DNA from: Eledone cirrhosa
Taxonomy: Eukaryota
Length of the DNA stretch: 64,000 nucleotides
Assembly: GCA_964016885.1 (NCBI GenBank)
Contig: OZ024747.1
Span: forward strand, 75,454,001 to 75,518,000
Direction: 5' to 3'
How positions within the stretch are numbered: position 1 is the first letter of the stretch; each line of letters opens with the position of its first letter. The notes below the pieces were generated by a model. The model was not told the DNA's origin and did no database searches. It saw only the letters and a program-made list of their open reading frames with translations. The translations under genes and the position numbers were made by a program. Positions 20,410 to 62,564 of the stretch are shown here, piece after piece.

Positions 20410-20915
20410 TGTCTTGTGGAAATATCCAGAGTGGTGGAGAGGGTTGTATGGTGCCAAGATTTTTCGCGCTCCTCGATCACAGATGGTTCAGTTCTGTAGT
20501 AGAGAACTCCGTTGATGAGGACATGGCAAGAGGTCACCGACGAAAGGAAAGCAGACAGGGCCAGTGGGACAGGCGACCTAAGACAAAGGCCGTCTTATTT
20601 GATGGGTAAAGTGACCTGCTGCCATCCGTTGTAATCAAACTGGACGTTACATATCTCGTTAGAAGCCCGTTGGATGCAGACGTCGAGATCTGTGAGGATC
20701 TGTGAGGAGAGATGCTTGGCTGTAACAAGGGGCACTGCGGAAGGTGTATAAGAATTTCGGCATGACGAAACAGTCTTCAACAGAAAGAGTGCCAGGTGGG
20801 TATGGATGAGGCTCAGTTAACTCATCATAGATTCTAGCTGGTGTAGTTTACACCTGAGGGTAGAGCGAATGGCAGGCGGGAGGATCGGTGACCCGGGGAT
20901 AAGGACCTCTTCCTT
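20410..20915 (-). mobile_element. CRE-clade non-LTR retrotransposon fragment, degenerate
   Basis: Minus translation LRSAPCY...WQQVTLPIK*DGLCLR...ALSAFLSS...EPSV; overlaps in motif with the start of the 60728-61773 element. Confidence 0.65.
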
Positions 20916-40641: not shown

Positions 40642-40853
40642 GACGAAAGTGGATGTACGTTTTTTGAAGCTCCGTGAGTAAGCAATTTTTTGAGGATTAA
40701 TTGTGGAGAATTGTTTATTTTTTTGTACCGCTGAAGCATTATAAGACATTCATTTGTACCCTGTGAAGGAATAACTCATAATATTTGGGCCTTTTGGCCC
40801 AAATATTTGAACTTTATTTTGGGAAAAATAATAATTTTTTTTCTCAAAAAAAC

Positions 40854-42716
40854 ATGGCGGAGCCACGCCCCCTAGAGGCGGGTCTGCTGTCGTGCAACGG
40901 CGACTTGAGCGTTGAGAGGAGAGGTGGGGCGAGGAGCGCCACCAGCACGAGTGTGAGCAGCGACAGTGCCAGCACCAACGGGCCGAGCGGCGCGGAAGGT
41001 GGTAATAGCGAGAGCACCAACAAAACGAACAGCACAGAGAGTAATAGTAGCGACAGCAACAGCACCAACAAGGCCAACAGCACAGAAGGTAACCACGACA
41101 CAGGGGAGAACAACAACAGCAATAGCAGCAGCAACACCAACAAGAACAACAACAGTGACAACACCAACAAGAACACTTTCGCTGCTGTGGCAGCGGCTAA
41201 AAGGAGACCATGCTACAGCATCGACTTAACCAACAGAGAGGAAAAGTTGGCCCAGGCCTGGAAAATCATAAATCAAGAGCAGACCTGGGCAAACTTAACT
41301 GTCCCGGCAGAAGCCATTGAGGCAGTGGAAAAAAGAACGGTGCATTTCAGATGCATCTCAGTAGAGACAAAGAGGGCAGCGATAATCGCCCAAGCTGACA
41401 TAGAAGCCGCACTGAAACACATCAGAGAGGACACAGACTTCATAGAGAGGGGCAGGCAATACGGCACCGTTTCGGTGCTGTTCAAGTCTGAAGCCCTCGC
41501 TGTGAAGCATTCAATGACCCCTTGCAAAACCAGCAAGGTCATAATGTACCCCTCCCACATGGGAAAACGAATAGCACGTGTGCGCATTCCCAGGATTCCA
41601 CCAGGACTTGATATGTGGTGGCTCCTGGGTTGCGTAATCGTGGAAGGAACGGATACAGTCCCGGTAGAGGCAACGAGAACTGCCAGGGACGACTGGTCCG
41701 GTGTTGATCTGGAGATACTGCTCCAAATCAGACCCGAAAACGTAAAAACAATCCCGGACCACATCCGCCTCCAAAACGGGAGGGTGTTGCATATAATGAC
41801 TGAGGGCAAAAGGCCGCATTGTTTCCTTTGTGGGGAAACGACACACTTGCGAGCCTTCTGCCCTCAACTGCCGAAAAGCGCAAGGGGTCGAAAGATTCCA
41901 CTGCTGGCGACGCCGGGACAAGGACCACCAGCAACACCGTCAACAATGGAACCACCAAAATTGCACACCCAGGGGGGAAACGAGGAAAGCTCTCCCATTC
42001 CCCCTCCCCCCCAAAATACACACACGAACAAGAACATAAACACTCACTCAGACACAAACACGCTCACAGCCACAGACCCCTCATCCTCCAGCAGTGAAGA
42101 TGAGGGAAAACCAAAGTCCCCCAAAATACAAAAAACAAAACACAAAAAAAAAAGAAATCCACAAAGCACAAACACCCCCACAAAAAAAAATACACACACC
42201 ACCCACACAAACATTTTCCCCACAGCATCACCAACACAACCACCAAAATCCCCCAAACGCAAACAAGCTAAACAGACACAAGAACAAATAGACACACAAA
42301 CATCAGAAACTACAGACACCCCACCCACAACAAACGCAGACACAATAGAAACAACACTAACAAAGCTATCACCACCACAATCACACGAACAAATAAAACC
42401 CGAGCAACAAAACATTAAAAACTTCGTGCTTGCCAGAAGGGCCAACAAGGAATTGATGGCCCATGTAGCACGAAGCACAAACATCGAAAAAGACGGGGAA
42501 ACATTTGAAGCGAGCACATTTCGCGTACCAGATAATTTGCTTCTGATGCGAATGTCGCTCGCTTCATACAAAGAAATTCGAAAGAGCTTTCCTCGGGATG
42601 TGGGAACCCCGAACGTAAAACCCACGTCAAGACTATTAAAGGGGTTCCCAAAAGAAACCCCACAAACCATGGAGGTCGAACCACCCGACCTTCACAAGAC
42701 CCCGGAAGGTAAGTAA
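40854..42716 (+). CDS. ORF1 gag-like nucleic-acid-binding protein (620 aa)
   Basis: ATG in AACATGG context, matching the copy 2 start; zinc knuckle CFLCGETTHLRAFC; N/S/T-rich low-complexity regions. Confidence 0.88.
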   Translation: MAEPRPLEAGLLSCNGDLSVERRGGARSATSTSVSSDSASTNGPSGAEGGNSESTNKTNSTESNSSDSNSTNKANSTEGNHDTGENNNSNSSSNTNKNNNSDNTNKNTFAAVAAAKRRPCYSIDLTNREEKLAQAWKIINQEQTWANLTVPAEAIEAVEKRTVHFRCISVETKRAAIIAQADIEAALKHIREDTDFIERGRQYGTVSVLFKSEALAVKHSMTPCKTSKVIMYPSHMGKRIARVRIPRIPPGLDMWWLLGCVIVEGTDTVPVEATRTARDDWSGVDLEILLQIRPENVKTIPDHIRLQNGRVLHIMTEGKRPHCFLCGETTHLRAFCPQLPKSARGRKIPLLATPGQGPPATPSTMEPPKLHTQGGNEESSPIPPPPQNTHTNKNINTHSDTNTLTATDPSSSSSEDEGKPKSPKIQKTKHKKKRNPQSTNTPTKKNTHTTHTNIFPTASPTQPPKSPKRKQAKQTQEQIDTQTSETTDTPPTTNADTIETTLTKLSPPQSHEQIKPEQQNIKNFVLARRANKELMAHVARSTNIEKDGETFEASTFRVPDNLLLMRMSLASYKEIRKSFPRDVGTPNVKPTSRLLKGFPKETPQTMEVEPPDLHKTPEGK

Positions 42717-42745
42717 ACCTTTCCTCTCCCATTCATCCTGCCAGC

Positions 42746-45700
42746 ATGGCCATAAGAGTAGGAAGTTTAAATGTTCGTGGCCTGGGGTCGCCCTGGAAGC
42801 AAGGTCACTTGCTCAACGACCTCAGGTCACTAGGAATGGATGTAATTGCCATCAGCGAGACCAGAATTTCCGACACACGCGCACTGGCGCCGATTTTCGA
42901 CGATTATCAGATCTTTGCATCTGTTAGTCGGCCGGGAATGGGAGGTGGAGTGGCTGTGCTGTTTAGGAAATGTCTGGATCTCGAGGTAAGGTCAATCTTC
43001 CGGGATCCTGACGGAAAGTTGGTGGTCCTGGACGTGAGCAATAGCGAAGGTGGTGCCTTTAGACTGGTGGCCGTCTACGCCCCTACTGGGGCCGGTCGGC
43101 CGGACCTCTTTAGGCGCCTGGAAAACTTTCTGCTTACGTCTCGCCCTTTACTGTTAATAGGGGATTGGAATGGCATCTTAGAAGCACGCTGGGATTGTGT
43201 GGGAGTATCTGATAGGAGCGGGGGGTGCAAAAGCCTCAAGTACCTGATCAGCCAGTTTCAACTGTCTGACAGGTACCGACTAGATTTCCCTAATGCGCCA
43301 GTATGGACCTGGACCAATCGCATAGGGTCATCTAGATCGTACATAGATAGGATTTTCATTAGGAAAAGAGATAGAAATAGTGTAGGATGTCCACATTTTA
43401 AAACGGTTGCCTATTCAGATCACAAGCTTGTGATCTGTATGGTCGACCTAGATAAGACACGTAGGTTAGGACCTAGCTACTGGAAGCTAAACATGTCGTT
43501 TCCGGCACGTAAAGCTTACAGGGACCGGGTCAACAACTTAGTTAAGCAAAAGTTGACAGGGGGGGTTGTCAACAACAGGTGGTGGGGGGCACTCAAAAGA
43601 GAGATTAGAGCAACCTCGATAGGATTTAGCAAAGAAGTAGCAATAGAGAAAAATAGAAAGGAGGAGGGGCTGATAGCTAAGTTAGACGAGGCTATTTGTA
43701 GTGGCATTGCAACAGACGTGCTAGCGGCGAGAATGGCACTAGACCATTTCTTCAATGCGAAACACGAAGGTTGCATTGTCAGAGCTAAGGCGCGTGCTCT
43801 GAGGAACGAGGGAACCAAAGCTGCCCGATGGGCTCGCTTTGCAGAGACGCAGCGTGGAAATAAAACCACAATTCGGTCTTTGACGGATCGAGATGGACAC
43901 GAACTGAGCGATTCCAAGCAGATGTGTGAGGCCTTTCGCCAGCACTTTGCTCGATTGTTCGGGAGGATGGGTGAGTCGGAGACGGCGGCGGACTTCAGTC
44001 CCTACCTCGACGGCTTGCCACGCCTCTCGACGGCCGACGCTGAGCGCTGCGAAGAGCCGATAACATCAGCCGAAATTCAGGACGCCCTTGTCGGCTGCTC
44101 GAGTCGCAAGTCACCCGGTTTGGATGGTCTGCCCTACGAGCTTTACGTAAATATGCCAGACTTGTTCTCCGATCTCCTCGAAGCGCTCTACTGCAACTGG
44201 CAGCAGAACGGGAGCATTCCCAGTTCTGTGAGCCGTGGCGTAGTGACGCTGATAAGGAAAGACGAGAACAAGAGGGACACACTAGATAATTTCAGGCCCA
44301 TAACCCTGCTCAACACAGAGTTTAAGATTTTGGCCAAGGTGTTAGCGAAAAGGTTGGCGCTTGTCGTCAAAGATTTGGTTGGGGAGGCGCAAACTTGCGC
44401 AATCCCGACCAGGTCCATACACGACAACCTCCACCTCATGCGATACATCATAGAGAGGGTTGGGTGCAAACCTGGCTTCGGTGGGGCTCTGATCAATTTA
44501 GATCAATCGAAAGCATTCGATAGGGTCGACCATCGGTACTTGGAGGCTGTCCTCGAGGCGGCTGGCTTCGGCCCCGTCTTCAGAAGCTGGATCGCTGCAA
44601 TGTACAGCGGCATCCGCTCGGTGGTCAAAGTTAATGGCCACCTCTCGGAACCGTTTCAGATCTCTCGATCGGTCCGTCAAGGGTGCCCTCTCTCCTCACT
44701 TCTGTACGTATTGACTCTTGAGCCTCTACTGCGGAAGCTGGAGTTGTTGCAGGGCATCCCGCTCGAACCGGGACGTAGAAAGGCTGCGTCCGCTTATGCG
44801 GACGACATCACCGTGATGGTGTCGGACACCTCGGAAATCGAGGTGATCCGCACCCATTTGGAGGAATATGAAAGGTTGACGGGAGCAAAACTTAACCCGG
44901 AAAAGTCGGTGGGCTTGCAGCTCGGCACCTGGAGAGGCAAGTCCATGCCGTCCAACAGCGTCGTTGGGCGCTGGACAGACGGACCGGTAAAGTTGCTCGG
45001 GGTTTGGTTCGGACCAGACCTCCAGGTGGATAAGAATTGGGACGAGGTGACGAGCAGGATAGCCAACCTCACCCAGAAATGGGCTGAGAGAAAGCTATCA
45101 CTGAAAGGGCGGGCGGAGGTGGCGAACGCGTACATCGCGTCCGTCATCTACTACCGCCTGACCGTCGTGCCTTGCCCCCGTCCACGCCTCGCCAATTTGG
45201 AACGGCTCCTTTTCAAATTTTTGTGGAGGGGACGGGTCCCGTTGGTGAGGCGGTCCATCTGCTGCCAGCACCCTCTTCGTGGAGGGCTGGGCATGCCGTG
45301 GCTAATGATGCGCAGACATGCGCTGAGGCTGCGACATCTCCAGATATTTTGCCTAAACGGTGAACAGGTGTGGTCGCCGTTTGTTAGACGGGCCTTTCCG
45401 CAGCTCATCTCTTTGACTGAGCTGCAGTCCTGGGTCAAGAAGAGACCGAGACTGGGCGACTGGCATCTGGAATGTTGCCAGGCGCTCACTGCACTCTGCA
45501 AGGTGGGCAATGCGGTCAGTGGAACTTCCACTCAAGATTTCTATAGAGGATTAGTGGAGGGCAAGTGCGATGACGTACTAGGAGAGGCTCTGGGCGTCAA
45601 CGAAGTAGAACTGACCAGTATGTTCCGGAGGACTTTCGAGCCGGGGACGATGGATAACTTCCAGAAATCCCTCGCTTGGCAGTGCTACCGGGGGGCGCTG

Positions 45701-46165
45701 CCGGTTCGGGATAAACTCTACAGGCACGGAAGTGCTGTCAGACGAACCTGCCCGAGATGCGCGCAGAGCGACGAAACCGTTCTGCACGCACTCGTCCAGT
45801 GTCCGTGCATTGCTGACTTGTGGGGTTATGTCGAACAGCTATTGTCGCGTGTAGAACGGATCCGGCTATCGTCCGAGTCCATAGTGAAGATTGACCCGCC
45901 GCCTTCTTTTGGTCAGGAAGGGCAGGCAATTTTCCTCTGCCTGGTGGCAGTAGCGAAAGAGGTTGCATGGTGGACCAGGTTGAAAGGACTGAAGACAGAC
46001 ACTTTTCTCTTCGGCCAATCCCTCATCAACTTCTTCAAGTTTCACTTGGAAAGGAAGGTGAGGGTGGAGAGAGAAGTGCTGCCCCCCAGTACATTTACTG
46101 AAAGGTGGGTGAATGTGGCGAGAATGGCCCGCGTGAGTGGGCCTACTCTGATCATGCGCCTGTAG
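42746..46165 (+). CDS. ORF2 APE endonuclease-reverse transcriptase (1139 aa)
   Basis: SLNVRGL, SET, GDWN, IDRIF, SDHK; KSPGLDG, FRPITLLN, KAFDRV, QGCPLS, YADD; C-terminal CPRC..H...C. Confidence 0.96.
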   Translation: MAIRVGSLNVRGLGSPWKQGHLLNDLRSLGMDVIAISETRISDTRALAPIFDDYQIFASVSRPGMGGGVAVLFRKCLDLEVRSIFRDPDGKLVVLDVSNSEGGAFRLVAVYAPTGAGRPDLFRRLENFLLTSRPLLLIGDWNGILEARWDCVGVSDRSGGCKSLKYLISQFQLSDRYRLDFPNAPVWTWTNRIGSSRSYIDRIFIRKRDRNSVGCPHFKTVAYSDHKLVICMVDLDKTRRLGPSYWKLNMSFPARKAYRDRVNNLVKQKLTGGVVNNRWWGALKREIRATSIGFSKEVAIEKNRKEEGLIAKLDEAICSGIATDVLAARMALDHFFNAKHEGCIVRAKARALRNEGTKAARWARFAETQRGNKTTIRSLTDRDGHELSDSKQMCEAFRQHFARLFGRMGESETAADFSPYLDGLPRLSTADAERCEEPITSAEIQDALVGCSSRKSPGLDGLPYELYVNMPDLFSDLLEALYCNWQQNGSIPSSVSRGVVTLIRKDENKRDTLDNFRPITLLNTEFKILAKVLAKRLALVVKDLVGEAQTCAIPTRSIHDNLHLMRYIIERVGCKPGFGGALINLDQSKAFDRVDHRYLEAVLEAAGFGPVFRSWIAAMYSGIRSVVKVNGHLSEPFQISRSVRQGCPLSSLLYVLTLEPLLRKLELLQGIPLEPGRRKAASAYADDITVMVSDTSEIEVIRTHLEEYERLTGAKLNPEKSVGLQLGTWRGKSMPSNSVVGRWTDGPVKLLGVWFGPDLQVDKNWDEVTSRIANLTQKWAERKLSLKGRAEVANAYIASVIYYRLTVVPCPRPRLANLERLLFKFLWRGRVPLVRRSICCQHPLRGGLGMPWLMMRRHALRLRHLQIFCLNGEQVWSPFVRRAFPQLISLTELQSWVKKRPRLGDWHLECCQALTALCKVGNAVSGTSTQDFYRGLVEGKCDDVLGEALGVNEVELTSMFRRTFEPGTMDNFQKSLAWQCYRGALPVRDKLYRHGSAVRRTCPRCAQSDETVLHALVQCPCIADLWGYVEQLLSRVERIRLSSESIVKIDPPPSFGQEGQAIFLCLVAVAKEVAWWTRLKGLKTDTFLFGQSLINFFKFHLERKVRVEREVLPPSTFTERWVNVARMARVSGPTLIMRL

Positions 46166-46654
46166 GCTGGTGAATTCGAGAAGGAGAGGGGTGCCCTTCC
46201 CGGGTGCCCTAGGAGCGTCGGGTGGCTCAGGACTGGTGGGGTGCTTGAGTCAACCCTGGGTGGTGATCCCTCTTATTGGGGAACTTTCATTGTTGTATTT
46301 TTATTGTTATTTTGTTTTTGTTTTTTTGTTATTTATACTTACTCGATCTCTATGTAAACCCCCACTGTCCCTGTCTATTGTGTTGTCCCCTATATGTCGG
46401 CCCTTGTGGCCAATAAATGAAATCATTATTATTATTATTATTGACGAAAGTGGATGTACGTTTTTTGAAGCTCCGTGAGTAAGCAATTTTTTGAGGATTA
46501 ATTGTAGAGAATTGTTTATTTTTTGTACCGCTGAAGCATTATAAGACATTAATTTGTATCCTGTGAAGGAATAACTCATAATATTTGGGCCTTTTGGCCC
46601 AAATATTTGAACTTTATTTTGAAAAAAAAATAATAATTTTTTTCTCAAAAAAAC

Positions 46655-48565
46655 ATGGCGGAGCCACGCCCCCTAGAGGCGGGTCTGCTGTCGTGCAACG
46701 GCGACTTGAGCGTTGAGAGGAGAGGTGAGGCGAGGAGCGCCACCAGCACGAATGTGAGCAGCGACAGTGCCAGCACCAACGGGCCGAGCGGCGCGGAAGG
46801 TGGTAACAGCGACAACACCAACACCAACAAGCCGAACAGCGCAGAAGGTGGTAATAACGAGAGCACCAACAAAACGAACAGCACAGAGAGTAATAGTAGC
46901 GACAGCAACAGCACCAACAAGGCCAACAGCACAGAGGGTAACCACGACACAGGGGAGAACAACAACAGCAATAGCAGCAGCAACACCAACAAGAACAACA
47001 ACAGTGACAACACCAACAAGAACACTTTCGCTGCTGTGGCAGCGGCTAAAAGGAGACCATGCTACAGCATCGACTTAACCAACAGAGAGGAAAAGTTGGC
47101 CCAGGCCTGGAAAATCATAAATCAAGAGCAGACCTGGGCAAACTTAACTGTCCCGGCAGAAGCCATTGAGGCAGTGGAAAAAAGAACGGTGCATTTCAGA
47201 TGCATCTCAGTAGAGACAAAGAGGGCAGCGATAATCGCCCAAGCTGACATAGAAGCCGCACTGAAATACATCAGAGAGGACACAGACTTCATAGAGAGGG
47301 GCAGGCAATACGGCACCGTTTCGGTGCTGTTCAAGTCTGAAGCCCTCGCTGTGAAGCATTCAATGACCCCTTGCAAAACCAGCAAGGTCATAATGTACCC
47401 CTCCCACATGGGAAAACGAATAGCACGTGTGCGCATTCCCAGGATTCCACCAGGACTTGATATGTGGTGGCTCCTGGGTTGCGTAATCGTGGAAGGAACG
47501 GATACAGTCCCGGTAGAGGCAACGAGAACTGCCAGGGACGACTGGTCCGGGGTTGATCTGGAGATACTGCTCCAAATCAGACCCGAAAACGTAAAAACAA
47601 TCCCGGACCACATCCGCCTCCAAAACGGGAGGGTGTTGCATATAATGACTGAGGGCAAAAGGCCGCATTGTTTCCTTTGTGGGGAAACGACACACTTGCG
47701 AGCCTTCTGCCCTCAACTGCCGAAAAGCGCAAGGGGTCGAAAGATTCCACTGCTGGCGACGCCGGGACAAGGACCACCAGCAACACCGTCAACAATGGAA
47801 CCACCAAAATTGCACACCCAGGGGGGAAACGAGGAAAGCTCTCCCATTCCCCCTCCCCCCCAAAATACACACACGAACAAGAACATAAACACTCACTCAG
47901 ACACAAACACGCTCACAGCCACAGACCCCTCATCCTCCAGCAGTGAAGATGAGGGAAAACCAAAGTCCCCCAAAATACAAAAAACAAAACACAAAAAAAA
48001 AAGAAATCCACAAAGCACAAACACCCCCACAAAAAAAAATACACACACCACCCACACAAACATTTTCCCCACAGCATCACCAACACAACCACCAACATCC
48101 CCCAAACGCAAACAAGCTAAACAGACACAAGAACAAATAGACACACAAACATCAGAAACTACAGACACCCCACCCACAACAAACGCAGACACAATAGAAA
48201 CAACACTAACAAAGCTATCACCACCACAATCACACGAACAAATAAAACCCGAGCAACAAAACATTAAAAACTTCGTGCTTGCCAGAAGGGCCAACAAGGA
48301 ATTGATGGCCCATGTAGCACGAAGCACAAACATCGAAAAAGACGGGGAAACATTTGAAGCGAGCACATTTCGCGTACCAGATAATTTGCTTCTGATGCGA
48401 ATGTCGCTCGCTTCATACAAAGAAATTCGAAAGAGCTTTCCTCGGGATGTGGGAACCCCGAACGTAAAACCCACGTCAAGACTATTAAAGGGGTTCCCAA
48501 AAGAAACCCCACAAACCATGGAGGTCGAACCACCCGACCTTCACAAGACCCCGGAAGGTAAGTAA
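46655..48565 (+). CDS. ORF1 gag-like protein (636 aa)
   Basis: As copy 1, plus a 16-aa in-frame insertion. Confidence 0.9.
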   Translation: MAEPRPLEAGLLSCNGDLSVERRGEARSATSTNVSSDSASTNGPSGAEGGNSDNTNTNKPNSAEGGNNESTNKTNSTESNSSDSNSTNKANSTEGNHDTGENNNSNSSSNTNKNNNSDNTNKNTFAAVAAAKRRPCYSIDLTNREEKLAQAWKIINQEQTWANLTVPAEAIEAVEKRTVHFRCISVETKRAAIIAQADIEAALKYIREDTDFIERGRQYGTVSVLFKSEALAVKHSMTPCKTSKVIMYPSHMGKRIARVRIPRIPPGLDMWWLLGCVIVEGTDTVPVEATRTARDDWSGVDLEILLQIRPENVKTIPDHIRLQNGRVLHIMTEGKRPHCFLCGETTHLRAFCPQLPKSARGRKIPLLATPGQGPPATPSTMEPPKLHTQGGNEESSPIPPPPQNTHTNKNINTHSDTNTLTATDPSSSSSEDEGKPKSPKIQKTKHKKKRNPQSTNTPTKKNTHTTHTNIFPTASPTQPPTSPKRKQAKQTQEQIDTQTSETTDTPPTTNADTIETTLTKLSPPQSHEQIKPEQQNIKNFVLARRANKELMAHVARSTNIEKDGETFEASTFRVPDNLLLMRMSLASYKEIRKSFPRDVGTPNVKPTSRLLKGFPKETPQTMEVEPPDLHKTPEGK

Positions 48566-48594
48566 ACCTTTCCTCTCCCATTCATCCTGCCAGC

Positions 48595-51500
48595 ATGGCC
48601 ATAAGAGTAGGAAGTTTAAATGTTCGTGGCCTGGGGTCGCCCTGGAAGCAAGGTCACTTGCTCAACGACCTCAGGTCACTAGGAATGGATGTAATTGCCA
48701 TCAGCGAGACCAGAATTTCCGACACACGCGCACTGGCGCCGATTTTCGACGATTATCAGATCTTTGCATCTGTTAGTCGGCCGGGAATGGGAGGTGGAGT
48801 GGCTGTGCTGTTTAGGAAATGTCTGGATCTCGAGGTAAGGTCAATCTTCCGGGATCCTGACGGAAAGTTGGTGGTCCTGGACGTGAGCAATAGCGAAGGT
48901 GGTGCCTTTAGACTGGTGGCCGTCTACGCCCCTACTGGGGCCGGTCGGCCGGACTTCTTTAGGCGCCTGGAAAACTTTCTGCTTACGTCTCGCCCTTTAC
49001 TGTTAATAGGGGATTGGAATGGCATCTTAGAAGCACGCTGGGATTGTGTGGGAGTATCTGATAGGAGCGGGGGGTGCAAAAGCCTCAAGTACCTGATCAG
49101 CCAGTTTCAACTGTCTGACAGGTACCGACTAGATTTCCCTAATGCGCCAGTATGGACCTGGACCAATCGCATAGGGTCATCTAGATCGTACATAGATAGG
49201 ATTTTCATTAGGAAAAGAGATAGAAATAGTGTAGGATGTCCACATTTTAAAACGGTTGCCTATTCAGATCACAAGCTTGTGATCTGTATGGTCGACCTAG
49301 ATAAGACACGTAGGTTAGGACCTAGCTACTGGAAGCTAAACATGTCGTTTCCGGCACGTAAAGCTTACAGGGACCGGGTCAACAACTTAGTTAAGCAAAA
49401 GTTGACAGGGGGGGTTGTCAACAACAGGTGGTGGGGGGCACTCAAAAGAGAGATTAGAGCAACCTCGATAGGATTTAGCAAAGAAGTAGCAATAGAGAAA
49501 AATAGAAAGGAGGAGGGGCTGATAGCTAAGTTAGACGAGGCTATTTGTAGTGGCATTGCAACAGACGTGCTAGCGGCGAGAATGGCACTAGACCATTTCT
49601 TCAATGCGAAACACGAAGGTTGCATTGTCAGAGCTAAGGCGCGTGCTCTGAGGAACGAGGGAAGCAAAGCTGCCCGATGGGCTCGCTTTGCAGAGACGCA
49701 GCGTGGAAATAAAACCACAATTCGGTCTTTGACGGATCGAGATGGACACGAACTGAGCGATTCCAAGCAGATGTGTGAGGCCTTTCGCCAGCACTTTGCT
49801 CGATTGTTCGGGAGGATGGGTGAGTCGGAGACGGCGGCGGACTTCAGTCCCTACCTCGACGGCTTGCCACGCCTCTCGACGGCCGACGCTGAGCGCTGCG
49901 AAGAGCCGATAACATCAGCCGAAATTCAGGACGCCCTTGTCGGCTGCTCGAGTCGCAAGTCACCCGGTTTGGATGGTCTGCCCTACGAGCTTTACGTAAA
50001 TATGCCAGACTTGTTCTCCGATCTCCTCGAAGCGCTCTACTGCAACTGGCAGCAGAACGGGAGCATTCCCAGTTCTGTGAGCCGTGGCGTAGTGACGCTG
50101 ATAAGGAAAGACGAGAACAAGAGGGACACACTAGATAATTTCAGGCCCATAACCCTGCTCAACACAGAGTTTAAGATTTTGGCCAAGGTGTTAGCGAAAA
50201 GGTTGGCGCTTGTCGTCAAAGATTTGGTTGGGGAGGCGCAAACTTGCGCAATCCCGACCAGGTCCATACACGACAACCTCCACCTCATGCGATACATCAT
50301 AGAGAGGGTTGGGTGCAAACCTGGCTTCGGTGGGGCTCTGATCAATTTAGATCAATCGAAAGCATTCGATAGGGTCGACCATCGGTACTTGGAGGCTGTC
50401 CTCGAGGCGGCTGGCTTCGGCCCCGTCTTCAGAAGCTGGATCGCTGCAATGTACAGCGGCATCCGCTCGGTGGTCAAAGTTAATGGCCACCTCTCGGAAC
50501 CGTTTCAGATCTCTCGATCGGTCCGTCAAGGGTGCCCTCTCTCCTCACTTCTGTACGTATTGACTCTTGAGCCTCTACTGCGGAAGCTGGAGTTGTTGCA
50601 GGGCATCCCGCTCGAACCGGGACGTAGAAAGGCTGCGTCCGCTTATGCGGACGACATCACCGTGATGGTGTCGGACACCTCGGAAATCGAGGTGATCCGC
50701 ACCCATTTGGAGGAATATGAAAGGTTGACGGGAGCAAAACTTAACCCGGAAAAGTCGGTGGGCTTGCAGCTCGGCACCTGGAGAGGCAAGTCCATGCCGT
50801 CCAACAGCGTCGTTGGGCGCTGGACAGACGGACCGGTAAAGTTGCTCGGGGTTTGGTTCGGACCAGACCTCCAGGTGGATAAGAATTGGGACGAGGTGAC
50901 GAGCAGGATAGCCAACCTCACCCAGAAATGGGCTGAGAGAAAGCTATCACTGAAAGGGCGGGCGGAGGTGGCGAACGCGTACATCGCGTCCGTCATCTAC
51001 TACCGCCTGACCGTCGTGCCTTGCCCCCGTCCACGCCTCGCCAATTTGGAACGGCTCCTTTTCAAATTTTTGTGGAGGGGACGGGTCCCGTTGGTGAGGC
51101 GGTCCATCTGCTGCCAGCACCCTCTTCGTGGAGGGCTGGGCATGCCGTGGCTAATGATGCGCAGACATGCGCTGAGGCTGCGACATCTCCAGATATTTTG
51201 CCTAAACGGTGAACAGGTGTGGTCGCCGTTTGTTAGACGGGCCTTTCCGCAGCTCATCTCTTTGACTGAGCTGCAGTCCTGGGTCAAGAAGAGACCGAGA
51301 CTGGGCGACTGGCATCTGGAATGTTGCCAGGCGCTCACTGCACTCTGCAAGGTGGGCAATGCGGTCAGTGGAACTTCCACTCAAGATTTCTATAGAGGAT
51401 TAGTGGAGGGCAAGTGCGATGACGTACTAGGAGAGGCTCTGGGCGTCAACGAAGTAGAACTGACCAGTATGTTCCGGAGGACTTTCGAGCCGGGGACGAT

Positions 51501-52014
51501 GGATAACTTCCAGAAATCCCTCGCTTGGCAGTGCTACCGGGGGGCGCTGCCGGTTCGGGATAAACTCTACAGGCACGGAAGTGCTGTCAGACGAACCTGC
51601 CCGAGATGCGCGCAGAGCGACGAAACCGTTCTGCACGCACTCGTCCAGTGTCCGTGCATTGCTGACTTGTGGGGTTATGTCGAACAGCTATTGTCGCGTG
51701 TAGAACGGATCCGGCTATCGTCCGAGTCCATAGTGAAGATTGACCCGCCGCCTTCTTTTGGTCAGGAAGGGCAGGCAATTTTCCTCTGCCTGGTGGCAGT
51801 AGCGAAAGAGGTTGCATGGTGGACCAGGTTGAAAGGACTGAAGACAGACACTTTTCTCTTCGGCCAATCCCTCATCAACTTCTTCAAGTTTCACTTGGAA
51901 AGGAAGGTGAGGGTGGAGAGAGAAGTGCTGCCCCCCAGTACATTTACTGAAAGGTGGGTGAATGTGGCGAGAATGGCCCGCGTGAGTGGGCCTACTCTGA
52001 TCATGCGCCTGTAG
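48595..52014 (+). CDS. ORF2 APE endonuclease-reverse transcriptase (1139 aa)
   Basis: All catalytic motifs intact; two aa differences seen versus copy 1 (PDLF/PDFF, EGTK/EGSK). Confidence 0.96.
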   Translation: MAIRVGSLNVRGLGSPWKQGHLLNDLRSLGMDVIAISETRISDTRALAPIFDDYQIFASVSRPGMGGGVAVLFRKCLDLEVRSIFRDPDGKLVVLDVSNSEGGAFRLVAVYAPTGAGRPDFFRRLENFLLTSRPLLLIGDWNGILEARWDCVGVSDRSGGCKSLKYLISQFQLSDRYRLDFPNAPVWTWTNRIGSSRSYIDRIFIRKRDRNSVGCPHFKTVAYSDHKLVICMVDLDKTRRLGPSYWKLNMSFPARKAYRDRVNNLVKQKLTGGVVNNRWWGALKREIRATSIGFSKEVAIEKNRKEEGLIAKLDEAICSGIATDVLAARMALDHFFNAKHEGCIVRAKARALRNEGSKAARWARFAETQRGNKTTIRSLTDRDGHELSDSKQMCEAFRQHFARLFGRMGESETAADFSPYLDGLPRLSTADAERCEEPITSAEIQDALVGCSSRKSPGLDGLPYELYVNMPDLFSDLLEALYCNWQQNGSIPSSVSRGVVTLIRKDENKRDTLDNFRPITLLNTEFKILAKVLAKRLALVVKDLVGEAQTCAIPTRSIHDNLHLMRYIIERVGCKPGFGGALINLDQSKAFDRVDHRYLEAVLEAAGFGPVFRSWIAAMYSGIRSVVKVNGHLSEPFQISRSVRQGCPLSSLLYVLTLEPLLRKLELLQGIPLEPGRRKAASAYADDITVMVSDTSEIEVIRTHLEEYERLTGAKLNPEKSVGLQLGTWRGKSMPSNSVVGRWTDGPVKLLGVWFGPDLQVDKNWDEVTSRIANLTQKWAERKLSLKGRAEVANAYIASVIYYRLTVVPCPRPRLANLERLLFKFLWRGRVPLVRRSICCQHPLRGGLGMPWLMMRRHALRLRHLQIFCLNGEQVWSPFVRRAFPQLISLTELQSWVKKRPRLGDWHLECCQALTALCKVGNAVSGTSTQDFYRGLVEGKCDDVLGEALGVNEVELTSMFRRTFEPGTMDNFQKSLAWQCYRGALPVRDKLYRHGSAVRRTCPRCAQSDETVLHALVQCPCIADLWGYVEQLLSRVERIRLSSESIVKIDPPPSFGQEGQAIFLCLVAVAKEVAWWTRLKGLKTDTFLFGQSLINFFKFHLERKVRVEREVLPPSTFTERWVNVARMARVSGPTLIMRL

Positions 52015-52754
52015 GCTGGTGAATTCGAGAAGGAGAGGGGTGCCCTTCCCGGGTGCCCTAGGAGCGTCGGGTGGCTCAGGACTGGTGGGGTGCTTGAGTC
52101 AACCCTGGGTGGTGATCCCTCTTATTGGGGAACTTTCATTGTTGTATTTTTATTGTTATTTTGTTTTTTTGTTATTTATACTTACTCGATCTCTATGTAA
52201 ACCCCCACTGTCCCTGTCTATTGTGTTGTCCCCTATATGTCGGCCCTTGTGGCCAATAAATGAAATCATTATTATTATTATTATTATTATTAGCTCATGC
52301 TTTCTTAACACCAATACGAGACTAAAAAAGAAATTAACTTGATCATACAAACATATTTAGAGTCAGTAGTACATTAGTGTAGTATAAACCAAATCAGCTG
52401 TATATTGAAACAAATTATTGGAGGGGGTTAAACCCTAAGAGCCTCTTAGCGCCGGAAGGTTTGATATCATATCTTACATATACACATTTGAAAATATCTG
52501 TGGCCAACAGAGAACGCCTCAATCACCCAACTGTTGCTACCCCCTGTTTAAATCAAACCTAGCTATGACTGAACATTTGATCATACGTCTACTCAACCAG
52601 AGCTGTCAACAGGTTATATAACAACATCAATACCCCAAACTAAGAACTGAATGGTGTATTTCTATGTGGAGTATGGTATATCTGAAATAATTAATCTGCG
52701 GCTCACATCTGTTCGTTTAATGATTATCTATCTGGGATCTGGGACTACACAATA

Positions 52755-60682: not shown

Positions 60683-60727
60683 TAATTTGTTGTTGCACAC
60701 ATACACACATACAAATACATATATAAA

Positions 60728-61773
60728 TTTTTTTTTTTTTTTTTTTTTAACCACAAACATGTTTATTTAACTCTACTGGGATGAAAGAATGGTATTTAAC
60801 TAATGTAATGGTACGCGATGGGGCCCATCCACAGCCCCGGCGGACAGAATGGAGAAGGCGTTTCCCTGGTGGACAGCAAGGGAGACGCGCTGGAAAAGCC
60901 GCTCCAACTCGCAGGGCTCACATCTACGGCTGGCCAGCTCAGCGCCTATGGTGGTGAGTAAGGAGGTAGCCCTGGGGCCGAGGACACCAGAAGTTTCCAC
61001 TGCCAGGGGAACGACCGCAAACCTGTCGGAGAGCGACTGGTATTTGAGGAGTTTGGCCCCCTCAGCCCGACGTGCAGCAGAACCTGGGTCAGTCGCAGAC
61101 TGCACCAGGTTGCGGCTGCAGAAAGTGTCGGTGCAAGTGGCATCCCAGACGAGGGGTTTGTCACCGCGGAACGGGAAGATGGTCATGCCATCTGGCCTTT
61201 TGCCGTCCCCTCGATCCAGCCCCACCGGCTCGTGCTGGGAAGGGAAGCCTGCAGCGTCCAAGCCATGCTTAACGACCTCGTTGGGGGCAGTATGGCGTGG
61301 AATGAGGTCGGCACTGTGGCGTCAGGAAAGCGGGTGGAGGCCGAAAGAGTCCACGGTGGAACCGCAGCGACATTGGTGTGGCTGGCAGATCCGGAGGCCG
61401 AGCTTCAGGGAAACGCCGATTCGCAGGCTATGGTTGTCTAGCTGCGTGCCAGTGGAGAAGAAGGGCAGGGCATGGAGCCAGGCACCACTGTGGGGTTTGG
61501 AGGCCGCACGAAAACAAGCAAGGCGGTGCTGGTCGAGCTGGCGCGTTAGCCTGTCTGAGGCCAGGCTGCACTGGATGGCATCCCAAGTGCGTTGGGGGGG
61601 GGGGGGGGGCTTGACGACGTCAACAGGGGAAGAAGGAGGAGGGACGTCTACTGGGCCAAGTCCCAGCCAGTCCCACGTCTCACAGGCGGCCTCACGTTCT
61701 CTGAACACAGAGGGTTCTGTTATGGGCCCCATCGCGTACCATTACATTAGTTAAATACCATTCTTTCATCCCA
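60728..61773 (-). mobile_element. 5'-truncated CRE-clade (restriction-like endonuclease) retrotransposon with poly(A), TSD and inverted cap
   Basis: Poly(T) 60728-60748; TSD CATATATAAATT at 60718-60729 and 61772-61783; 52-bp perfect inverted repeat 60777-60828/61722-61773. Confidence 0.9.
60800..61721 (-). pseudogene. CRE-type C-terminal zinc finger + PD-(D/E)XK endonuclease, with a premature stop
   Basis: SGAWLHALP, RIGVSLKLG, CRCG..D..GLHPLS* (TGA at the expected Cys), DGKRPDG...WDATC.DT...K..KY...PLAVETSG...GNA. Confidence 0.85.
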
Positions 61774-62564
61774 TATATAAATTATAGATTGGTTTTGATA
61801 TTTATTGTTTGATTCAACGATTGATTGATGTAATCAGTTGTTAAATTGATCCATTGGTTTATCGATAGACTCAGATTGATCCTTGCCGCACACGACTTCC
61901 TCATATTTACCTCCCTTTAAAATAAGGGTAAAATAAAATCCTATTACAACTTTGTAAGACAGAACATTTCAAATGATATATTAAACCCTGGATTATCTTA
62001 TCTAAACCCTTCTACCTTCTTAACATTGTACATTACTTTATGTCACATTCTCAACAAAGTTGTACAAGTTAAATCATGTTTAGTACTTTCTAAATATCAG
62101 TAATGTTACTGGCAGGGCAGGAGTGACTTTACATATCAACATAAAAGTTCCATCTAAGAATTAGCCTGTATAAATTAAGCTACTCCCAGCTTCGTTACAC
62201 GAAACTACAACAACTGTTTGCTGGCAAGCATTGACTAAATCGTCTGAAAAAGATATTAATAGGTTCCGAATTTTCTAATAAATAAAAATACATAATATAA
62301 TAGTTTAGTGATCAATAGTGATGGGAAGGCAGGATCGGTGGAGCATCACACGAAATGCTTTGTGGTTATTTTGTTACTTCCTTTGAATTTCAGTGTTCTA
62401 ATGGCACCAAAACCGAACTTGTTTTTCATCCTTCCGGCTTCGATACAATCGATTAATGACATTACCAGGAATATCTGGACTTGTGCCAGTGATAGAAATC
62501 GTAATATAATTGCTAATCAAACTTTTGATTACGCTTTGGGAGGTGTCAGCTGGTTATGAAATAC

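What the first reader, a model, noticed from the sequence alone, without database searches (positions are those of the whole stretch)
60718..61783. CRE-clade insertion capped by a snap-back copy of its own 3' end
Seen: TSD-poly(T)-3' UTR-body, then a perfect 52-bp inverted duplicate of the stop/3' UTR region, then the TSD. The inner junction ATGGGCCC is complementary to GGGCCCAT at 60821-60828, and the outer junction shares CA with the TSD. Classical twin priming inverts adjacent sequence without duplicating it; this duplicates sequence ~900 bp away. Inference: the first-strand cDNA end folded back on itself, was extended, then was joined by microhomology. The result is a retroelement with pseudo-TIRs, a structure usually associated with Penelope-like elements.
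Basis: partly seen in the sequence, partly recalled or inferred. Interest (0 to 1): 0.7.

Follow-up and report, generated by a model that had tools for sequence, protein, structure and literature searches.

The report
Broken LINE copy with mirror-image cap
A one-off, truncated copy of a jumping gene carries a 52-base mirror image of its own tail at its front end, most likely because both cut ends of the chromosome started copying the same RNA tail; it is an insertion scar of a known kind, not a new mobile element.

Summary
The structure is real: an 11-12 bp target duplication encloses poly(A), a 5'-truncated single-ORF RLE-type (CRE-like) LINE, and a perfect 52-bp inverted copy of its stop/3' UTR region. 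The inner junction is unique in the 3-Gb genome, so this is no propagating pseudo-TIR family. Twin priming with duplication is known for L1. In 234 sampled family copies, six inversions reach 5' of the forward piece and need an RNA template. Two other 3'-end caps break within 5 nt of the same GC hairpin. L342 has a 16-bp TSD and 7-nt outer microhomology, which fits double priming; L225 has 5-nt inner microhomology and runs into target DNA, which fits true snap-back. Ours matches L342's signature: double priming about 0.52, snap-back about 0.38. Unchecked notes of this scan report twin-primed and fold-back scars at other retroelements in this genome. Known process, unusual fully nested form; modest interest.

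The parts
60718..60729 (.). Target-site duplication, copy on the poly(A) side (11 bp, or 12 if the first T of the T run is counted)
   Evidence: (D3)
60729..60748 (-). poly(A) tail of the element (T run on +); site of first target-primed reverse transcription (inferred)
60749..60782 (-). 34-nt sub-lineage tail ('tail A', holds AATAAA) beyond the family core; likely a 3' transduction of the source copy
   Evidence: shared by a minority sub-lineage; other copies carry other tails
60777..60828 (-). Inner arm: last ORF codons, stop (60800-60802), core 3' UTR and first 6 nt of tail A; the stretch duplicated in the cap
60819..60839 (+). Predicted GC hairpin (GGGGC/GCCCC stem, 9-nt loop) at which the cap's inner end falls; caps of L225 and L342 break within 5 nt of it
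   Evidence: fold (prediction only)
60800..61721 (-). 5'-truncated ORF remnant: linker, CCHC-like finger, RH and RPD..D restriction-like endonuclease motifs; premature stop at 61322-61324; private G run 61594-61609
   Evidence: 96% to the family majority sequence
61721..61722 (.). Inner head-to-head junction, 0 nt perfect microhomology (native GTG against cap ATG on +); unique in the genome
61722..61773 (+). 52-bp inverted cap carrying the same sub-lineage variants as the body
61772..61783 (.). Target-site duplication, copy on the cap side; first 2 nt (CA) are microhomology with the cap

Best explanation
This is a single 5'-truncated LINE insertion whose inverted cap was likely made by double (twin) priming close to the RNA's 3' end. 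A staggered cut 11-12 nt apart left two target 3' ends (shown by the TSD). One primed on the poly(A) and was copied for about 990 nt (inferred). The other likely paired by CA:TG with the same RNA, or a sibling RNA of the same source, 27 nt upstream of the poly(A), and was copied for 52 nt to the GC hairpin. The first cDNA would have displaced the second (strand displacement by RLE-type RTs is recalled knowledge, not tested). The two cDNA ends were likely joined head to head without perfect microhomology, and the gaps were filled. The product is a dead copy; the inverted ends have no sign of function.
For: Outer junction has 2-nt microhomology and an intact TSD; inner junction has 0 nt. That is the twin-priming pattern: in L1 only 28 of 605 inverted copies lack outer microhomology, and inversion junctions lack it more often (PMC2912911 passages). 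The family does twin-prime: 6 of 234 copies with a visible 5' junction have inverted pieces reaching 5' of the forward piece. L163 inverts to the element's very 5' end with a 67-nt overlap and a TSD. L342 has the same design as ours: 16-bp TSD, 7-nt outer microhomology inside the RNA tail, no inner microhomology, cap ending at -41 and reaching 11 nt further 5' than its body. TSD of 9 nt or more: 2 of 6 upstream-inverted copies against 15 of 226 simple ones, null 57 of 2798 (p=0.064). Priming inside the tail is normal: at least 9 of the 37 listed tail-A-like copies stop within it. Cap and body share the sub-lineage variants.
Against: The overlap is total and 893 nt from the forward end; L1 duplications have a median of 22 bp. 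Among the 6 upstream inversions the largest overlap is 67 nt. The outer pairing is only 2 nt and energetically unremarkable (rank 33-87 of 340 in the last 993 nt). The TSD enrichment is not significant. L225, a DNA-templated cap, starts within 1 nt of ours. L342 could be a snap-back whose tip was later trimmed. Simple truncations are not enriched at the hairpin (3 there against 8 in a control zone with a different copy pool), so an RT stall there is not shown.
Confidence: 0.52

Rival explanations
1. Snap-back. The first cDNA's 3' end, probably ending in GTG, paired imperfectly with the hairpin loop of the same cDNA near 60826-60833, was extended 52 nt, and was then joined to the other target end by CA microhomology.
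For: Any cap made this way lies inside the body, as here. L225 shows the family does it: a 127-bp cap, 96% identical arms, 5-nt inner microhomology at the same site, no TSD. It runs past the 19-nt tail shared with 19 other copies into a piece of a 1482-copy genomic repeat and sequence matched nowhere else among 40 scored of 394 candidates. An imperfect duplex (CTGT:ACAG plus GTG:CAT) can be drawn. Snap-back junctions are a described class for the RLE element R2 (PMC11371274, PMC11331408, PMC11204384 passages). L225 was 1 of 187 copies picked by place; no TSD-flanked nested cap was in that set.
Against: Perfect inner microhomology is 0 nt, and the base at 61722 follows the template (A), not the cDNA (G). 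This needs mismatch repair or a later mutation (about 2.6% per site). The imperfect register ranks 11-48 of about 200-235, never first. An intact TSD is rare among simple truncations (15 of 226) and absent in L225.
Confidence: 0.38
2. A later, separate event: a second very short insertion of the same sub-lineage, or a repair-templated inverted copy, landed exactly at the 5' junction of an existing copy.
For: Very short copies exist (three simple truncations at -40 to -45). L218 carries an inverted 110-bp copy of its own 5' junction about 200 bp downstream, so templated inverted copies occur here. The arms are identical although the body has 25 of 963 private differences (chance about 0.065), which would fit a younger cap.
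Against: One TSD encloses body and cap with no flank lost or gained. Tail A is a small sub-lineage (29 exact matches of its 29-mer, against 915 of the family 19-mer).
Confidence: 0.07
3. A propagating non-autonomous element with real inverted termini (MITE- or Penelope-like), or an assembly artefact.
For: Inverted ends inside a TSD resemble Penelope insertions with an inverted pseudo-LTR (PMC3846280 passages). The inner junction was not seen bridged in the listed contigs.
Against: The junction occurs once in the genome, one mismatch allowed. The 3.9-kb family sequence has no terminal inverted repeat. The outer junction is in a public-run contig. The ORF is RLE-type, not GIY-YIG.
Confidence: 0.03

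Closest known systems
Twin-primed 5'-inverted L1 insertions with internal duplication (bioRxiv 10.1101/2024.08.27.596794 section 4 part 1 and passages read; PMC2912911, PMC11702581, PMC4245944 passages; Ostertag and Kazazian 2001 not held, known only through these)
   Same: Antisense piece at the 5' junction inside a 10-20 bp TSD, outer microhomology, duplicated sequence when the poly(dT)-primed cDNA passes the internal primer site.
   Different: L1 duplications are short (median 22 bp) and lie at the inversion point. Here the whole inverted piece is nested 893 nt inside the forward piece and starts 27 nt from the poly(A). The element is an RLE-type LINE; PMC4245944 saw 5' inversions almost only with L1 among three LINEs tested in culture.
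R2 'snap-back' 5' junctions in PRINT transgene insertion (PMC11371274, PMC11331408, PMC11204384; passages read)
   Same: RLE-type protein; upstream target joined to an antisense copy of the inserted sequence; the template is most often the cDNA itself.
   Different: Seen in engineered site-specific insertions in human cells. Here the inner junction lacks perfect microhomology and the TSD is intact. The sister copy L225 fits this class better than this locus does.
Two-template head-to-head insertions (PMC11702581 section 7 read; twin-primed snRNA/L1 chimeras, PMC4476161 passages)
   Same: Two target ends each extended by RT and joined in opposite orientation inside one TSD.
   Different: There the two pieces come from different RNAs. 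Here both carry the same sub-lineage variants, so one RNA or two from one source cannot be told apart.
Penelope-like elements with inverted pseudo-LTR (PMC3846280 passages)
   Same: Inverted terminal copy inside a TSD.
   Different: In PLEs it is a recurring family feature of about 200 bp with a GIY-YIG ORF. Here it is a 52-bp one-off in about 1% or fewer of copies of an RLE LINE with a poly(A) tail.

Membership tests
RLE-type non-LTR retrotransposon | Single ORF with RT followed by a CCHC finger and PD..D restriction-like endonuclease, no APE | tested here: met
   One 1098-aa frame in the 3.9-kb family majority sequence with PHD-like finger, RT (YLDD) and RH/RPD..D motifs; Pfam RVT_1 E=1e-5 and PHD E=0.012 in a real copy, both under the curated cut-off; motifs in the window copy
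RLE-type non-LTR retrotransposon | 3'-anchored, 5'-truncated copies without LTRs or TIRs | tested here: met
   251 distinct copies share the 3' end with variable 5' ends, median about 930 nt; no terminal repeats
CRE clade | RT groups with CRE1/CRE2/SLACS/CZAR/MoTeR in a tree | not tested
   No named reference was returned. Homologs were mostly unnamed; PDB gave only weak L1 and PHD hits; Atlas clusters were unnamed
CRE clade | REL motif C-X1-3-C-X7-8-H-X3-4-C-X9-10-RHD/N-X19-33-E-X9-21-R/KPD-X12-14-D/E as given for SLACS/CRE (PMC12857005 passage) | tested here: inconclusive
   Same order of residues, but spacers are 9, 8 and 15 (each off by one) and RHT stands for RHD/N; a strict pattern did not match
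CRE clade | Site-specific insertion into a repeat | tested here: inconclusive
   Mostly dispersed; a genomic repeat motif lies within 150 nt of the 3' end in 11 of 251 copies against 4 of 3211 control windows
Twin-primed insertion | TSD preserved | tested here: met
   11-12 bp
Twin-primed insertion | Microhomology between target end and RNA at the outer junction | tested here: met
   2 nt (CA); weak, and also expected after snap-back
Twin-primed insertion | Inverted piece copied from RNA (reaches sequence absent from the first cDNA) | tested here: inconclusive
   The cap is wholly nested, so the template cannot be read off; shown for 6 sister copies and likely for L342
Snap-back junction | Inverted piece nested in the cDNA or adjacent target | tested here: met
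Snap-back junction | cDNA 3' end pairs with its own template at the inner junction | tested here: not met
   0 nt perfect; imperfect register not outstanding; met in L225 with 5 nt
Penelope-like element / TIR element | Inverted ends native or shared by many copies; GIY-YIG or transposase ORF | tested here: not met
   Junction found once; no native inverted ends and an RLE ORF

The most novel reading that the evidence does not exclude
This RLE LINE family has a structural hotspot: a GC hairpin just before the stop codon at which head-to-head caps form by two routes. A second RT primed in the RNA tail stalls there (this locus, L342), and cDNA ends fold back onto it (L225). Together with ordinary twin priming, this would show that both target ends prime reverse transcription in vivo in an early-branching RLE LINE, and that the first cDNA can displace a second over its whole length.
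Probability: 0.3. Interest if true: 0.5.

Novelty: new variant of a known kind. Interest (0 to 1): 0.3.

Why it matters
As a single locus it is a fossil of a mis-resolved insertion, with no sign of function or spread. Its use is mechanistic. How non-LTR elements finish the 5' junction is still open, and inversions have been studied almost only for L1 and engineered R2. This family offers natural examples of twin priming, near-3'-end double priming and snap-back side by side, with three independent caps breaking within 5 nt. A full count in the assembly could test whether an RLE RT primes on both target ends and whether an RNA or cDNA hairpin steers the junction. It also warns that such scars can be mistaken for TIR or Penelope-like elements. 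I found no paper describing twin priming or nested caps for a CRE-like family in five searches; subscription journals and Repbase are not covered.

Tried and rejected
No genome-wide count of caps was obtained; all frequencies rest on samples. Head-to-head motif pairs within 4 kb were looked for by eye in listed rows: only ours among 29 of 29, none in 100 of 915, 100 of 214 and 100 of 103. This misses caps with a variant in either arm, as happened with L225. Short nested caps of 11 nt or more: 0 of 226 non-inverted copies. The first duplex-energy run did not enforce the terminal pair and was redone; neither junction register stood out. RT-stall hotspot: not shown; 3 simple truncations and 2 caps at the hairpin against 8 truncations and 0 caps in a control zone with a different copy pool. 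A tandem triplet on C1 was fetched as a possible full-length array; it is a segmental repeat with a rearranged copy, and its palindrome is not LINE sequence. Pfam found nothing in the two window ORF pieces; a plasmid search found nothing. Clade naming by homolog, PDB and Atlas searches failed. No empty-site allele was seen; the holders are three runs of one sample, and the RAD-seq run did not cover the flank. Gene conversion as the cause of the shared A variant was rejected: 8 of 37 other aligned copies, all tail A, carry it. The size distribution of L1 duplications is in a bioRxiv supplement that I could not see; it may hold fully nested cases.

Full report
Observation. On the minus strand the locus reads: target duplication, 52-bp antisense piece, 5'-truncated body, 3' UTR, a 34-nt tail, poly(A), target duplication. 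The arms at 60777-60828 and 61722-61773 are 100% complementary and 893 nt apart. The duplication is 11 bp, or 12 with the shared T, and its CA is also the last 2 nt of the cap. The body encodes the C-terminal part of an RLE-type ORF with one premature stop. A contig from a public run covers the cap-to-flank junction without differences, though with only 28 cap letters and perhaps from the assembly's own sample; no listed contig bridged the inner junction.

The family. The window lies in a 3.0-Gb animal genome. A 19-mer of the 3' UTR matches 915 times exactly. Twenty-three long copies give a 3.9-kb majority sequence with one 1098-aa frame (PHD-like finger, RT with YLDD, CCHC-like finger, RH and RPD..D motifs) and no terminal inverted repeat (Pfam support below cut-off). 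The REL motif is close to, but not within, the SLACS/CRE pattern given in PMC12857005 (passage). No named CRE reference was retrieved, so 'CRE-like' stays a lead. Sub-lineages differ in their 3' tails. Our copy has tail A, and the cap carries that sub-lineage's variants, including an A shared by 8 of 37 other aligned copies. Cap and body therefore come from the same source element.

The inner junction occurs once in the genome with up to one mismatch, and the inverted ends are not native, so neither refutation applies. But GGGCCCAT is not native at the truncation point: 28 of the 29 other best-matching copies read AACAC before it, and the 29th is truncated at that base. Perfect inner microhomology is 0 nt on either side. 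If the cDNA ran 2-3 nt further, an imperfect duplex with the landing site can be drawn. It ranks 11th to 48th of about 200-235 registers with a paired end, and it leaves the A at 61722 unexplained without repair or mutation. The outer CA pairing is just as unremarkable in energy. The premise that twin priming never duplicates is wrong: 283 of 1703 L1 5' inversions have an internal duplication, median 22 bp, when the poly(dT)-primed cDNA passes the internal primer (bioRxiv 2024.08.27.596794, section 4 part 1).

Survey of sister copies. Of 287 loci, 36 were dropped (29 with the same 3' context as another, 3 array or repeat fetches, 3 without a scored 3' end, 1 without a hit), leaving 251. In 234 the 5' junction was visible: 226 not inverted, 8 inverted. 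Six of the 8 (L026, L044, L080, L110, L163, L224), plus L004 whose end lies outside its locus, have inverted pieces reaching 5' of the forward piece. These cannot be copied from the first cDNA, so the family twin-primes. L163 inverts from -273 to the element's first base, with a 67-nt overlap and a TSD. Their inner junctions show about 0-3 nt of microhomology (read by eye). TSDs of 9 nt or more were found in 2 of these 6 and in 15 of 226 simple copies, null 57 of 2798 (p=0.064), so an intact TSD is unusual in this family. Among the 187 copies picked by place alone, 4 were inverted. Part of the sample was picked by sub-lineage motif and by likeness to our copy.

Two other 3'-end caps. L225 has a 127-bp cap, 96% identical to its template, starting within 1 nt of ours, with 5 nt of inner microhomology and no TSD. 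It runs past the 19-nt tail that 19 other copies share (none shares more than 20). It continues into a piece of a 1482-copy repeat that had no LINE upstream in 25 of 25 loci, and into sequence matched nowhere else among 40 scored of 394 candidates. It was most likely copied from DNA: a true snap-back. L342 (duplicated nearby as L343) came from a joint seen in public contigs and was then found in the assembly. It has a 16-bp TSD. Its forward piece runs from -30 into a tail shared with other copies; its inverted piece starts inside that tail with 7 nt of microhomology to the target and ends at -41, with a 3-nt filler and no inner microhomology. The inverted piece reaches 11 nt further 5' than the body, so the simplest reading is two primers on the RNA tail; a trimmed hairpin tip is the alternative. 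All three caps break at -45 to -40, at a predicted GC hairpin. Ours defined that site and L342 was found through our arms, so only L225 is an independent hit. A pattern search of that zone returned 2 caps, 3 simple truncations and 1 internal variant; a control zone gave 8 truncations, 3 variants and no cap. The hotspot is suggested, not shown.

Mechanism. Shown: one insertion, staggered cut, cap from the same source, no perfect inner and 2 nt outer microhomology, both routes present in the family. Inferred: which route made this cap. The TSD, the start in the RNA tail and the missing inner microhomology match L342 and the twin-priming pattern in L1 (PMC2912911, PMC4245944, PMC11702581 passages). 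The full nesting, the 893-nt distance and the landing site shared with L225 match snap-back as described for R2 (PMC11371274, PMC11331408, PMC11204384 passages). I put double priming at 0.52, snap-back at 0.38, a later separate event at 0.07 and the rest at 0.03. These odds are judgement on a few comparators. That RLE RTs displace strands and lack RNase H is recalled, not from a call.

Comparison and novelty. Both candidate processes are in print. Also read in passages: PMC10191854 (fold-back inversions at L1 targets), PMC12350158 (twin-primed L1 with duplications), PMC4476161 (twin-primed snRNA chimeras) and PMC3846280 (Penelope inverted pseudo-LTRs). The Penelope likeness is in shape only. 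Five searches showed no account of twin priming or nested caps in a CRE-like family; the library lacks most subscription journals, and the supplement with L1 duplication sizes was not visible. Unchecked notes of this scan describe twin-primed and fold-back scars at other retroelements in the same genome; they are not evidence. Verdict: a real, fully nested variant of a known insertion scar, most interesting as one of three caps at one hairpin; interest 0.3.

Noticed in passing
window 40643-52292: Two full-length, open two-ORF LINEs (APE, RT, zf-RVT in ORF2) in tandem, 99.6% identical. Each starts right after the (ATT)n tail of the one before, and a diverged relative's 3' end lies upstream. Looks like an L1/Tx1-type element that targets its own tail microsatellite; possibly active.
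   Followed up: partly
L225:2722-4075 (G000:C2, 330.37 Mb): Second nested cap of this family, 127 bp, 5-nt inner microhomology, running into target DNA: a clean natural snap-back.
   Followed up: yes
L342 and L343, about 1440-1610 (G000:C7, 71.14 Mb): Near-palindromic head-to-head insert of two 3' ends inside a 16-bp TSD, present twice 5.9 kb apart; likely double priming on the RNA tail.
   Followed up: yes
L163:59-4014 (G000:C1, 246.84 Mb): Twin-primed copy that holds the entire element: 3.6 kb inverted up to the first base, two extra C, a 67-nt duplication and a TSD.
   Followed up: partly
L218 (G000:C2, 270.78 Mb): A 110-bp inverted copy of the element's 5' junction (56 bp flank plus 54 bp element) sits about 200 bp beyond its 3' end and also stops at a GGGCCC.
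   Followed up: partly
L021, L068, L087, L225, L266, L269 and others, 3' flanks: A motif of an abundant genomic repeat (1482 matches) lies within 150 nt of the 3' end in 11 of 251 copies, in both orientations, against 4 of 3211 control windows: possible target preference.
   Followed up: partly
family-wide: At least six sub-lineage tails follow a common core end, and copies stop at many points inside a tail: serial 3' transduction with internal priming. Most copies lack a TSD of 9 nt or more.
   Followed up: partly
window 20475-20915: An older, 71% identical fragment of a related RLE element.
   Followed up: no
L361 (G000:C1, 85.76 Mb): Only the tail is in forward orientation, preceded by about 1.4 kb of inverted body: twin priming with a very short first cDNA.
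   Followed up: no
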